Shown one piece after another: positions 1,159-3,890 of a stretch of DNA of 14,983 nucleotides. Both the position numbers and the translations under genes were made by a program. Numbering within the stretch: the stretch's first letter is position 1; every line of letters begins with the position of its first letter. Origin of the DNA: a virus (lineage: Duplodnaviria; Heunggongvirae; Uroviricota; Caudoviricetes); the IMG/VR virus record IMGVR_UViG_2529292981_000041; one strand, 5' to 3'. Below the pieces are notes generated by a model. It worked only from the letters and a program-made list of their open reading frames with translations. It made no database searches and was not told the origin of the DNA.

Positions 1159-2820
1159 TTACACCCCACTAAATTCTTCCAGTTTCTGGCGGTGGCTGTC
1201 GCTTATATCAAAAGCAAAATCCTCATGCTCTGCCTGGAATGTACCAAACGCCATCAGCGCCGCCACGCTCGGGTCTATCTTGTTCGGTGATTTTTTCTTG
1301 TTCGGCTTGATATTGGCGTTCGCGTCACTCTGCATCACGACGTTACTCATCGACCAGGACAACACCGGATCGCCACGATGCACAATCACCCTGCGGTTAA
1401 CAAAAACTTCGAACGATTTCGCCGCCGGACTGAATCTGAGGTAGGTTTGCGGGAACGGCTCCACCTCAAAACCTGCCCCCTGTAATTGCGTTCTGAGATG
1501 CGTGGCGTTCCACGTATCAAAGCCCACCAGCCTGATATTAAATTTCTCCGCGTCCTGCATGATGTCATCTCTGATCCGGTCGTAATCAATGCAGTCGCCA
1601 GGCGTTGTGCGTATCCAGCCTGCTTTAGCCCACTGACGATAGATGGCGCGGTTTTTATTGGCGGGGTTCTGTAGCTGGAACTCCGGCAGATAATGACGGG
1701 AAACCAGCATAATGGTTTTACCTACCGGAAAGGCATAGCACACGCTGGAAATATCGCTTGTGGATGATAAATCCAGCCCCGCGTAACACTCCTGGCCGTG
1801 TAAATCTTCCTCTGTGAACGTTCCGGCACACTCAGCCCATGCGCCGTTACCCATCCACGGGGTAGCCCCCTGGCACCAGATATTAAATCGCTTTGTCATC
1901 ATCTCCACCCACTGCGACGGAATACCCCGCGCTTTCTGGATGGTTGAGGCCAGTTTTTCACGATCCACGGAAACATCAATATTAGGGTTCGCCTTTATCC
2001 ACATCGCCGGATCATCAACCTCGTTTTCGTCGTCCAGTTCGTAAATCAGTACAAAAATTGAATCGTTGACCTCTTCGCCGTCCAGGATCTGGCAGCAATA
2101 ATCATAGTGCTGCTTACAGGCTGAAACGACGTTACTGCCTGATGTGGTAATAGCAAATAACAGCCCTTCGGGACGTGCGCCCATCCCCAGCTCAAGCGCG
2201 GAATAAACGCCGTTATCGGGGTGCAAGTGGTATTCGTCCACGATGGAAAGGCTGGGGTTTGTTCCCTCGATGGTTGCCGCTTTTGCTGCCAGCGGCTTTA
2301 ACAGGCTGTTGCTTTTCGGGTGTATCACCTTATGCGCCTGAATATTCACCCGCCTGCGTAACGGTCGGGATAAAAGGCACATCTGACGCGCATCATCAAA
2401 GACGATCCGCGCCTGGTCACGGCTCACCGCTGCGGTGTAGATATCCTGCTGACCGTTCTCCATAATCAGAAACCAGTTAGCCAGAATCGCGGCGGTCGTT
2501 GATTTCGCATTTTTGCGCGGCACTTCGATAAAGGCGCTCGTATATTTGCGCCGTCCGGTGGCCTTAACCTTAAAGCCGAGAATGCACGCAAAGGCGAACT
2601 GCTGCCACGGCTCCAGCTCAATGGGTCTGCCACGCATCGGCCCTTTTACGTGCGGGCACACCCTGGAAAAGGCAATAAACCGATCCACAACCTCACGATC
2701 GAACGTGTAAAGGGGGCTTTTAAGGTCCGAAAAGTACCGTTTAACGGCCTGTTTCAGCCGTTTACAGGCCGGAATTTTGCCCGTTTTTACGTCTTCTGCG
2801 TACTTATTCCAGGCGGTCAA
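1159..2820 (-). CDS. terL: Terminase large subunit (Terminase_1-like), apparent TTG start
   Basis: 553-aa ORF with the terminase ATPase P-loop context FIEVPRKNAKSTTAAILANWF and a nuclease-type C-terminal half. The furthest in-frame start is TTG at 2818-2820, preceded by GAGGA. It overlaps the terS stop by 17 nt. Confidence 0.9.
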   Translation of the reverse strand: MTAWNKYAEDVKTGKIPACKRLKQAVKRYFSDLKSPLYTFDREVVDRFIAFSRVCPHVKGPMRGRPIELEPWQQFAFACILGFKVKATGRRKYTSAFIEVPRKNAKSTTAAILANWFLIMENGQQDIYTAAVSRDQARIVFDDARQMCLLSRPLRRRVNIQAHKVIHPKSNSLLKPLAAKAATIEGTNPSLSIVDEYHLHPDNGVYSALELGMGARPEGLLFAITTSGSNVVSACKQHYDYCCQILDGEEVNDSIFVLIYELDDENEVDDPAMWIKANPNIDVSVDREKLASTIQKARGIPSQWVEMMTKRFNIWCQGATPWMGNGAWAECAGTFTEEDLHGQECYAGLDLSSTSDISSVCYAFPVGKTIMLVSRHYLPEFQLQNPANKNRAIYRQWAKAGWIRTTPGDCIDYDRIRDDIMQDAEKFNIRLVGFDTWNATHLRTQLQGAGFEVEPFPQTYLRFSPAAKSFEVFVNRRVIVHRGDPVLSWSMSNVVMQSDANANIKPNKKKSPNKIDPSVAALMAFGTFQAEHEDFAFDISDSHRQKLEEFSGV

Positions 2821-3160
2821 GCTCGTCCTCTTCTTCTGTTTCCGGTGGATTTTTACGGCGGCTTATCGGGTCAAAACCGAGCAAGGAGGCCATTTTTATC
2901 ATCACTCTTTCCGCGTCGGATTTCGCGCTTAATGCGGGGTTTCTGCTCTCTCCGCCCTGACTGTTAACAATGCTGAACCCGCGCGCCGCAAGGTCTGCGA
3001 CGGCTTTCCGGTATATCGAGTAATTGACGCAATACAGTTCCAGATTGCTCCAGTCGGCGGGAGTCAGGTCACCCCGTTCCGCAAGCTGCCGCGATTTTTC
3101 CCGCCACTGCTTCACGGCGATATCATCCAGGTAGGCGGGGGCTTTCGGTGGTCTTGCCAT
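2804..3160 (-). CDS. terS: Terminase small subunit, P27 family
   Basis: 118-aa ORF starting MARPPKAP, the RPPK N-terminal signature of P27-family small terminases, with an acidic C-terminus; sits immediately upstream of terL. Confidence 0.8.
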   Translation of the reverse strand: MARPPKAPAYLDDIAVKQWREKSRQLAERGDLTPADWSNLELYCVNYSIYRKAVADLAARGFSIVNSQGGESRNPALSAKSDAERVMIKMASLLGFDPISRRKNPPETEEEDELDRLE

Positions 3161-3214
3161 ACTTATTTTTTCGCCAGATTATTTTTCAAAAAATTCCCGT
3201 GCATAAAAATTTGA

Positions 3215-3265
3215 GGAGGCGGTCGGTGCCCGGCGGGGTCGGGTTTGTCCTGAAAACGCCCCCCA
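3215..3265. other. Candidate cos region (GC-rich block between HNH and terS)
   Basis: ggaggcggtcggtgcccggcggggtcgggtttgtcc sits in the only sizeable non-coding gap of the packaging operon, about 60-100 nt upstream of the terS start. Placement is by analogy with HK97-like HNH/TerS/TerL cos systems. Confidence 0.25.
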
Positions 3266-3283
3266 CCCCGTCATACAGCCTCA

Positions 3284-3466
3284 TCAGCGATTGCGGAAAC
3301 ATTCCATAACCTCGCGGTCACGGTCGGTTAATCGCTTCGCTGTGATGCGTTCTGCGCGTCCTGACGCTTTATCTTTATGCCCTGTTTCCTGTGTCTTCCA
3401 TGCGTCACGCTGCCTTATAAGTCCACGGATAAGGCGGTTTTGTTCCCGCTCATTCATCAGCGTCAT
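3284..3466 (-). CDS. Possible small basic protein (60 aa) between HNH and terS
   Basis: ATG at 3464-3466, MTLMNEREQNRLIRGLIRQRDAWK...; Arg/Lys-rich; overlaps the HNH stop by a few codons. Could instead be non-coding sequence around cos. Confidence 0.25.
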   Translation of the reverse strand: MTLMNEREQNRLIRGLIRQRDAWKTQETGHKDKASGRAERITAKRLTDRDREVMECFRNR

Positions 3467-3890
3467 ACATCCAGTTATTGCGGTTAGCGGCCCGTTCTTC
3501 CTCTTCACGAAACCCACCTGCGGCACGCTTGCTTTTTGTTGCCGGATCAAGCCATTTCGTTTTCTGGTTATGGCACGCCTGGCACAATGGCTGATGGTTC
3601 CATTCGGGCCAGAAGAGAACATCATCACCGCCATTAATCGGGATAATGTGATCCACCACCACGGCGGGCGTATATATCCCCTTCTCAAGGCATCGCACGC
3701 ATAACGGGTTTTTACTCAGATACATGGCGCGGTATTTGTCCCACTGTCTGGAGTACCCACGCGCGCGGCGGTGTCCTCGTCTGGCATCCTCTGCACGCCA
3801 TGCCGCCCGCCTGTGCTCCTCACACTTGCCGGACTTCACGCGCCTGTTACAGCCTGGTTCTGTGCATCGTCTTAATGGTTGCCACGGCAT
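3450..3890 (-). CDS. HNH endonuclease (packaging-associated)
   Basis: 146-aa ORF with Cys pairs CTEPGCNRR and CVRC, conserved His/Asn spacing (VVVDHIIPINGG ... NHQPLCQACHNQK). Its ATG shares one base with the connector stop. Confidence 0.85.
   Translation of the reverse strand: MPWQPLRRCTEPGCNRRVKSGKCEEHRRAAWRAEDARRGHRRARGYSRQWDKYRAMYLSKNPLCVRCLEKGIYTPAVVVDHIIPINGGDDVLFWPEWNHQPLCQACHNQKTKWLDPATKSKRAAGGFREEEERAANRNNWMYDADE

What the first reader, a model, noticed from the sequence alone, without database searches (positions are those of the whole stretch)
3161..3466. Candidate cos site and a possible small basic ORF in the HNH-terS gap
This is the only sizeable gap in the packaging operon, with a GC-rich block (3215-3265) and an overlapping 60-codon Arg/Lys-rich ORF. 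In HNH-dependent cos phages the cos site sits between the HNH gene and terS, so this is where the island's packaging signal is expected. Its sequence would determine which terminases can package the island.
Basis: inference. Interest (0 to 1): 0.45.

Follow-up and report, generated by a model that had tools for sequence, protein, structure and literature searches.

The report
Packaging cut site of a phage satellite
The 123-base gap upstream of the small terminase gene of this E. coli O157 capsid-forming satellite island is very probably its own HK97-style DNA-packaging (cos) site, and the small ORF beside it is a real conserved gene; this is expected biology for a known element, now located to the base.

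Summary
The window is the known capsid-forming satellite (cf-PICI) EcCIEDL933 of E. coli O157:H7, with all genes on the minus strand. The 60-codon ORF (3284-3466) is a genuine conserved gene, so the true non-coding gap is only 3161-3283.

That gap is conserved in about 76 relatives from four bacterial orders, at the level of terS codon positions 1-2. Its layout matches the mapped HK97 cos site: G-run, about 43 nt, C-rich box, cut, about 13 nt, specific bases plus T-tract, then terS.

The HK97 register predicts a cut between 3216 and 3215. Two public records of Klebsiella relatives agree. A particle-derived assembly (vB_KppS-Ant) lacks exactly 69 nt centred on this point. A 15,995-bp "plasmid" that is a whole cf-PICI has its record origin exactly there.

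No promoter, terminator or RNA-family signal was found.

The small protein is two helices with dN/dS about 0.35. It is found only in Enterobacterales, has no known relatives, and is coupled to the HNH gene. It is probably the published "hypothetical gene 1792", whose loss severely reduces transfer.

This is a new member of a known kind, of modest interest.

The parts
1159..2820 (-). terL, terminase large subunit
   Evidence: Pfam TerL_ATPase plus TerL_nuclease. It is 27% identical to HK97 gp2 over 507 aa, E 1e-46.
2804..3160 (-). terS, small terminase of the P27 family (PF05119)
   Evidence: Pfam E 1.3e-23. The conserved start MARPPK follows a purine-rich leader in relatives. Longer 156-168 aa database calls are over-extensions through the gap, in different frames in different lineages.
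3161..3178 (-). terS leader, a weakly conserved purine-rich ribosome-binding region
   Evidence: Mean pairwise identity is 0.55 over the measured segment 3161-3175. Relatives carry AGGAAA 8-12 nt before the ATG.
3179..3202 (-). Predicted TerS recognition site: GCACGGGAA, then a T-tract (3188-3193), then GAAAAATAA. Positions +14 to +28 (3188-3202) correspond to HK97 +15 to +29.
   Evidence: Mean pairwise identity is 0.78-0.81 across 76 relatives, against 0.41 at terS four-fold sites. In HK97 the minimal TerS site is +15 to +29 (CTAACCCGATTTTTT) and its A/T tract is essential (PMC11331095). Binding itself was not tested here.
3203..3215 (-). CTCAAATTTTTAT, the predicted first bases of the packaged left end (+1 to +13)
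   Evidence: This is the most conserved block, with identity 0.89. The pattern is unique in the window, with 0 expected by chance. Record NZ_CP069874.1 starts with CTCAAATTTTTACGCACGG in gene orientation.
3215..3216 (-). Predicted cos cleavage point on the gene-sense strand, between 3216 and 3215
   Evidence: Three lines agree. The HK97 register from the nhmmer alignment gives this point. The record origin of NZ_CP069874.1 falls here. The 69 nt missing from vB_KppS-Ant split 31/38 around it. Overhang length and polarity were not determined.
3216..3231 (-). C-rich box GGGCACCGACCGCCTC. The last 10 nt (3216-3225) are the candidate cohesive end if the overhang is like HK97's.
   Evidence: Identity is 0.78. 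HK97 has GACCGCCGCCAAA at the same place, immediately before its cut. NZ_CP069874.1 ends ...CACCACCCGCCCC.
3232..3243 (-). Variable spacer
   Evidence: Identity is 0.42, the same as the neutral four-fold sites of terS.
3244..3256 (-). Conserved TTTTCAGGACAAA (AAAAATGACAAA in Xenorhabdus and Proteus types)
   Evidence: Identity is 0.72. The vB_KppS-Ant record ends at ...TTTTCAGGAC.
3259..3269 (-). G-box GGGGTGGGGGG, which ends 43 nt before the predicted cut
   Evidence: Identity is 0.87. HK97 has GGGCAGGGGGGGGG ending 42 nt before its cut. Its role is inferred: terminase or HNH contact, or a termination element.
3284..3466 (-). Small basic protein gene, 60 codons from the first ATG. The conserved start is the ATG at 3457 (57 aa), which overlaps the HNH stop in ATGAATGA.
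   Evidence: RefSeq WP_000174068.1. phrog_3173 E 7.5e-37. At least 158 clusters, all named ones Enterobacterales. Median dN/dS 0.35 and indels in whole codons. The AlphaFold model has two helices, pLDDT 76.
3450..3890 (-). HNH endonuclease of the packaging machine
   Evidence: Pfam HNH E 1.8e-8. It is 39% identical to HK97 gp74, E 2e-19.

Best explanation
The non-coding stretch 3176-3269, read on the minus strand, is the island's own HK97-type cos site.

Proposed mechanism: after induction the island replicates as concatemers. Its P27-family TerS binds the conserved GCACGG(N3)-T-tract motif about 14-28 bp downstream of the cut. TerL together with the HNH protein nicks the DNA at the junction of the C-rich box and CTCAAATTTTT, between 3216 and 3215 on the sense strand. 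This probably leaves a short G+C-rich cohesive end. Packaging then runs from terS through terL, the att junction and int, and round to the capsid genes, HNH and the small ORF. It stops at the next cos.

The TerS-site bases differ from those of HK97-type helpers, so island and helper do not package each other.

The adjacent 57-60 aa basic protein is a real gene that is translationally coupled to HNH. It most likely acts as an accessory packaging factor.

What is shown: the conservation, the layout, and the public-record ends falling in the gap. What is inferred: protein-DNA contacts, the exact nick, the overhang, and the role of the small protein.
For: Identity of the element:
- 100% DNA identity to E. 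coli O157:H7 chromosomes, inserted in tqsA. The gene set is int, AlpA-type regulator, DUF927 primase-like gene, capsid, protease, portal, connectors, HNH, terS, terL.
- This is EcCIEDL933. All of its packaging genes are needed for its transfer and none for the helper's.

Conservation:
- 80 loci from GTDB species representatives all show HNH, then an optional small ORF, then a 125-140 nt gap, then terS.
- Mean pairwise identity is 0.87 in the G-box and 0.81 in the core 3176-3231. It is 0.41 at terS four-fold sites and 0.42 in the gap's own spacer.

HK97 comparison:
- The HK97 genome ends show the same order and spacing. The G-run ends at -43 versus -44, a C-rich box precedes the cut, the T-tract starts at +24 versus +23, and terS starts at +50 versus +56.
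- A profile of the 76 gaps has its best hit in the circularised HK97 genome exactly across the cos junction, although only at E 0.065.
- TerL and HNH are homologous to HK97 gp2 and gp74.

DNA ends:
- vB_KppS-Ant was sequenced from lysate DNA with Nextera XT. It is identical to the integrated K. pneumoniae ATCC 13883 element over 2409 + 2876 flanking nt.
- It lacks 69 nt of the gap. The predicted cut splits those 69 nt 31/38.
- NZ_CP069874.1 is a whole cf-PICI of 15,995 bp whose record origin is exactly at the predicted cut. The prediction was written down, before this record was seen.
- Cohesive ends are reported for KpCIDSM30104.

Specificity and rival signals:
- The cos core is found in no bona fide phage record.
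- No promoter, terminator or Rfam signal was found.
Against: - No particle DNA of this particular island was examined. Both end-bearing records are Klebsiella relatives with 81-84% identical TerS.
- NZ_CP069874.1 is flagged circular, so its origin could in principle be arbitrary. The chance of an exact coincidence is about 1 in 16,000.
- The Ant gap could come from an assembly artefact in a G/C-run and T-run region.
- The sequence match to HK97 cos is not significant on its own (E 0.065).
- The overhang length and polarity are unknown.
- The assignment of the published gene '1792' to this ORF is unproven.
Confidence: 0.85

Rival explanations
1. The conserved gap is mainly an expression signal for terS-terL, such as an internal promoter, an attenuator or a translational control element. 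On this view the packaging site lies elsewhere.
For: It lies directly upstream of terS. The last roughly 20 nt contain a ribosome-binding region. The G-box and C-box are partly complementary, and RNAalifold draws an 8-bp stem between them.
Against: There is no sigma-70-like promoter on the coding strand and no terminator-like hairpin in the gap. The consensus fold is weak (-4.6 kcal/mol) with almost no covariation (-0.21). There is no Rfam match. The two public records break exactly here. The genes on both sides overlap or abut as in a single operon. A dual role is not excluded.
Confidence: 0.07
2. The island is packaged by a headful (pac) mechanism that starts near terS, with no fixed ends.
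For: TerS genes often contain or adjoin pac sites. No end mapping exists for this island.
Against: The machinery has an HNH partner and an HK97-like TerL. A relative's DNA forms concatemers through cohesive ends. A unit-length record has a defined origin in the gap, and a unit-length particle assembly has a symmetric terminal loss. A permuted genome would assemble as a circle without a gap.
Confidence: 0.03
3. The small ORF is not an accessory packaging gene. It is either a spurious ORF or a gene with an unrelated role, for example regulation or anti-defence.
For: It is absent from most relatives that keep the same cos module: most Xenorhabdus and Photorhabdus loci, plus the Gilliamella, Pasteurella, Aeromonas and Citrobacter loci examined. 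So it is not essential to the mechanism. It has no Pfam, PDB or fold match.
Against: A spurious ORF is excluded by four observations: dN/dS of 0.35, whole-codon indels, an invariant C-terminal FRNR motif despite synonymous changes, and a conserved start overlapping the HNH stop. It always sits between HNH and cos. The only 'hypothetical' gene reported in the packaging module gave a severe transfer defect that was restored by complementation.
Confidence: 0.3

Closest known systems
cos site of coliphage HK97 (HNH gp74, TerS gp1, TerL gp2)
   Same: It lies between the HNH gene and terS. It has the same order and near-identical spacing of G-run, C-rich box, cut, specific bases plus T-tract, and terS start. 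TerL and HNH are homologous.
   Different: The actual bases of the TerS site differ: GCACGGGAATTTTTT here versus CTAACCCGATTTTTT in HK97. TerS belongs to another sequence family (PF05119) with no detectable similarity to gp1. The gap is 123 nt here, against about 180 nt of non-coding DNA in HK97. The termini and overhang are not determined experimentally here.
cos sites of Staphylococcus aureus HNH-dependent phages phi12/phiSLT, as copied by SaPIbov5
   Same: These are satellite-borne cos sites used by an HNH-TerS-TerL machine (PMC5052747).
   Different: SaPIbov5 carries the helper's cos and uses the helper's terminase. This island carries a private cos and its own terminase. No phage record carries the same cos core.
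lambda cos (cosQ-cosN-cosB) and the Rpp-redirected cos of classical E. coli PICIs
   Same: It is a tripartite packaging signal directly upstream of the small terminase gene, with a G+C-rich cohesive-end segment.
   Different: Lambda has no HNH partner, a Nu1-type TerS, a 12-nt 5' overhang and IHF-assisted cosB (own knowledge). No sequence relation was seen here.
phrog_3173 (small ORF family, function unknown)
   Same: The ORF matches the profile end to end, E 7.5e-37.
   Different: The family has no assigned function. Here it is shown to be confined to cf-PICI-type packaging modules of Enterobacterales and always to lie between HNH and cos.

Membership tests
HK97-type (HNH-dependent) cos site | Lies between the HNH endonuclease gene and terS, at the junction of the packaged genome's ends | tested here: met
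   The order is HNH 3450-3890, small ORF, gap, terS 2804-3160. The HK97 record shows the same arrangement.
HK97-type (HNH-dependent) cos site | Ends of particle DNA map to the site | tested here: inconclusive
   This was not tested for this island. For Klebsiella relatives, the Ant particle assembly lacks 69 nt centred on the site, and the NZ_CP069874.1 origin is exactly at it. Both are database records, not end-mapping experiments.
HK97-type (HNH-dependent) cos site | Short single-stranded cohesive ends (10-nt 3' overhang in HK97) | not testable with these tools
   Only the literature is available: cohesive-end concatemers are reported for KpCIDSM30104. Length and polarity are unknown.
HK97-type (HNH-dependent) cos site | TerS recognition element with an A/T tract about 15-29 bp downstream of the cut | tested here: met
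   A conserved GCACGG(N3)T6-7 motif sits at +14 to +28 or +29, against HK97 +15 to +29. This is a sequence-level match only; binding was not tested.
HK97-type (HNH-dependent) cos site | Significant sequence similarity to the HK97 cos | tested here: inconclusive
   The best nhmmer hit in the HK97 genome is the cos junction, but at E 0.065 and 7.8 bits.
HK97-type (HNH-dependent) cos site | Packaging requires HNH, TerS and TerL together | not testable with these tools
   Genetic evidence comes from the literature: each mutant abolishes island transfer.
Capsid-forming PICI (EcCIEDL933 type) | [quoted passage not shown] | tested here: met
   RefSeq annotation of the identical O157:H7 locus and Pfam scans. 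The criteria are quoted.
P27-family small terminase (PF05119), relation to HK97 gp1 | Same fold and DNA-clamp mechanism as HK97 TerS | tested here: inconclusive
phrog_3173 | Full-length profile match | tested here: met
   E 7.5e-37; residues 4-60 match profile positions 1-57 of 57.

The most novel reading that the evidence does not exclude
The 57-aa two-helix basic protein, encoded between HNH and cos and translationally coupled to HNH, is an unrecognised fourth component of HNH-type terminases that acts at the adjacent cos site. Together with a swapped TerS-binding module on an otherwise HK97-like cos scaffold (the G-box and C-box are retained with the homologous TerL and HNH), it gives the satellite a private packaging signal orthogonal to its helper's.
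Probability: 0.3. Interest if true: 0.5.

Novelty: new member of a known kind. Interest (0 to 1): 0.33.

Why it matters
Capsid-forming satellites spread across species by packaging only themselves into their own small heads. The cis signal that defines "self" was not located in any paper I could read.

Placing it at 3176-3269, with a likely cut at 3216|3215 and a separable TerS-site module, gives three direct uses:
- a minimal cassette for testing what can be mobilised in these capsids;
- a marker to tell mobile from dead copies, such as the Shigella copy that lacks it;
- a natural experiment on how cos specificity changes while TerL and HNH stay homologous.

It is incremental rather than surprising. 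A cos site at this position is what the field would expect.

Tried and rejected
- **Structured RNA.** Rfam gave no hits at E<=1. RNAalifold gave a weak 8-bp G-box/C-box stem with no real covariation. Rejected.
- **Promoter or terminator.** Nothing was found on the coding strand in the gap.
- **Contigs of 15-17 kb that carry the small protein (Logan).** These were checked for cos-delimited ends. They break near int/att, not at cos, so they are uninformative.
- **IMG/VR contigs carrying the core motif.** These are mostly predicted prophages, and none starts at the cut.
- **Phage database search with the gap DNA.** It returned only cf-PICI-like records.
- **Sequence homology of TerS to HK97 gp1.** BLASTP, Pfam, hhalign and a PDB profile search all found none. 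Fold search was inconclusive.
- **The small protein.** No Pfam, PDB-sequence or Foldseek match was found.
- **Identity of the published 'gene 1792'.** The number occurs once in the preprint, and no supplement is held. The published version is not held. Cluster member names show no EDL933 locus tags. Unresolved.
- **A long (165 aa) TerS reading through the gap.** Rejected, because the extensions are in different frames in different lineages.

Full report
**What the window is.**
The 306-nt interval is 100% identical to E. coli O157:H7 chromosomes and is present in 489 of 5426 complete E. coli genomes. The annotated copy is a roughly 15-kb island inserted in tqsA. It carries an integrase, an AlpA-type regulator, a DUF927 primase-like gene, capsid, protease, portal, two connectors, HNH, a 'hypothetical protein', a P27-family terS and terL. 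This is the capsid-forming satellite EcCIEDL933. Published genetics show that it makes its own small capsids and packages itself exclusively with its own HNH, TerS and TerL (10.1101/2022.09.08.507074). All genes are on the minus strand of the window.

**The observation.**
- terS is 2804-3160, HNH is 3450-3890 and terL is 1159-2820.
- This is the only sizeable gap in the capsid-to-terL operon.
- The block 3215-3265 is 72.5% G+C and abuts a 26% G+C block.
- The 60-codon ORF 3284-3466 (-) has 12 Arg and 4 Lys, with pI 10.7.
- The ORF does not overlap the GC-rich block. It overlaps the end of the HNH gene.

**The small ORF is a gene.**
- RefSeq annotates it as WP_000174068.1, and it matches phrog_3173 end to end at E 7.5e-37.
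- A profile search finds at least 158 clusters. Every named one is from Enterobacterales, all are 'hypothetical', and none has a Pfam domain. An exhaustive HMMER search with the close-relative profile found only 10 representatives, so the family is narrow.
- Among 25 distinct orthologues from different genera, the median dN/dS is 0.35, and all indels are whole codons.
- The C-terminal ...RDRELxECFRNR is kept despite synonymous changes.
- The conserved start is the second ATG (3457). It overlaps the HNH stop in ATGAATGA, which suggests translational coupling.
- AlphaFold predicts two helices, residues 3-38 and 45-55, with pLDDT 76. Foldseek and a PDB sequence search find nothing.
- The true non-coding gap is therefore 3161-3283, 123 nt.

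**The gap is a conserved cis element.**
A scan of one genome per species returned 80 loci with TerS 63-100% identical. They come from Enterobacterales, Pasteurellales, Orbales and Aeromonas. All have HNH, then an optional small ORF, then 125-140 nt, then terS.

Read on the sense strand, the aligned gaps show this order:
- a G-box GGGTGGGGG;
- TTTCAGGAC/AAAAATGAC followed by AAA;
- a roughly 12-nt variable spacer;
- a C-rich box;
- CTCAAATTTTTAYGCACGGYR;
- a T6-7 tract followed by GAAAATA;
- a purine-rich leader and the ATG.

| Segment | Mean pairwise identity |
|---|---|
| G-box | 0.87 |
| Core 3176-3231 | 0.81 |
| Gap's own variable spacer | 0.42 |
| terS four-fold degenerate sites | 0.41 |
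| terS codon positions 1 / 2 | 0.83 / 0.88 |

**Comparison with a mapped cos site.**
The ends of the HK97 genome record read ...GGGCAGGGGGGGGG-N29-GACCGCCGCCAAA | GTTTGAATTTAACGCTAACCCGATTTTTTTAG...ATG(terS). Position 1 of that record is the cut. The minimal TerS site is +15 to +29, its T-tract is essential, and the ends carry a 10-nt 3' overhang (PMC11331095; PMC9410871).

| Landmark | HK97 | This island |
|---|---|---|
| G-run ends | -43 | -44 |
| C-rich box | just before the cut | just before the cut |
| T-tract starts | +24 | +23 |
| terS starts | +50 | +56 |

**Independent evidence on DNA ends.**
- The phage record LR881103.1 (vB_KppS-Ant, 16,548 bp, linear) was assembled from lysate DNA with a Nextera XT library (PMC8006926). 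It is the Klebsiella cf-PICI of strain DSM 30104 / ATCC 13883.
  - It starts 22 nt before terS and ends 37 nt after the small ORF.
  - Against the integrated copy (L087) it has no mismatch over 2409 + 2876 nt of flanks.
  - It lacks exactly 69 nt of the gap. The predicted cut splits those 69 nt 31/38. That is what tagmentation of a linear molecule with ends at this point would give (own knowledge of the method).
- The PLSDB record NZ_CP069874.1 (K. pneumoniae FDAARGOS_1323 'plasmid unnamed2', 15,995 bp) is a complete cf-PICI.
  - In gene orientation it ends ...CACCACCCGCCCC and starts CTCAAATTTTTACGCACGG.
  - Its origin is therefore exactly the predicted cut. The prediction was recorded, before this record was found.
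- He et al. report cohesive-end concatemers for the same Klebsiella element.

**Rivals.**
No sigma-70-like promoter lies on the coding strand and no terminator lies in the gap. There is no Rfam match. The only consensus RNA stem is weak and lacks covariation. Headful packaging conflicts with the HNH/HK97-type machinery, the reported cohesive ends and the unit-length records. The cos core occurs in no bona fide phage record. That fits the mutually exclusive packaging of island and helper.

**The small protein's role.**
It is absent from most Xenorhabdus and Photorhabdus relatives, and from the Gilliamella, Pasteurella, Aeromonas and Citrobacter relatives examined, all of which keep the same cos module. 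It is therefore accessory. The preprint reports that all packaging-module mutants abolish transfer except 'hypothetical gene 1792', whose transfer is severely reduced; complementation restored titres for the packaging-module mutants. This ORF is the only hypothetical gene inside the module. The ORF after terL lies in a region described as variable and accessory. So 1792 is probably this gene. I could not verify it.

**Verdict.**
It is an expected feature of a known element, built like the HK97 cos but with a different TerS-site sequence. I found no paper in the held library that maps it. I rate it a new member of a known kind, of modest interest.

Noticed in passing
L086 (Shigella flexneri SFBU1023) 2454-2501; protein P0144: The Shigella copy of the island has a deletion running from just after TTTCAGGACAAACCCGACCC to codon 8 of terS. 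It removes the whole cos core and the terS start, so this copy should be unable to package itself.
   Followed up: partly
window 3161-3302; proteins P0142, P0159, P0211: Many database TerS entries are 156-168 aa because gene callers extend the ORF upstream through the cos gap. The extensions are in different reading frames in different lineages, so they are annotation artefacts.
   Followed up: yes
L293 (CP088587.1, 32,560 bp): A record deposited as a circular E. coli plasmid is this island plus about 9 kb and 8 kb of its chromosomal flanks (clcB to mdtJ and pntAB to ydgH). It may be a misassembly, or an amplified excision product that includes the flanks.
   Followed up: no
L002 (LR881103.1, vB_KppS-Ant): This record was published as a filamentous ssDNA phage representing a novel genus (PMC8006926). 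It is the capsid-forming satellite KpCIDSM30104, and its assembly lacks the terminal 69 nt.
   Followed up: yes
L167 447-698 (HK97 39346-39597): HK97 has an unannotated 83-codon ORF between the HNH gene gp74 and cos, in the same position as the island's small ORF. Similarity between the two was not tested.
   Followed up: no
L001 16913-17323 (O157:H7 copy of the island): RefSeq marks the island's single-stranded DNA-binding protein gene as a pseudogene with an internal stop.
   Followed up: no
L292 (CP018459.1, 16,971 bp); NZ_CP038627.1 and NZ_CP123539.1 (Arsenophonus, about 16 kb): Several satellite-sized records that encode this type of terS are deposited as non-mobilizable plasmids. CP018459.1 has a full cf-PICI-like gene set. 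This suggests that episomal or particle forms are common in sequenced cultures.
   Followed up: partly
L002 2036-4333; L169 12295-14601: Klebsiella relatives carry a gene of about 768 aa directly after terL. It is annotated as 'tail length tape measure protein' even though these elements have no tail module. It is probably an accessory or defence gene.
   Followed up: no
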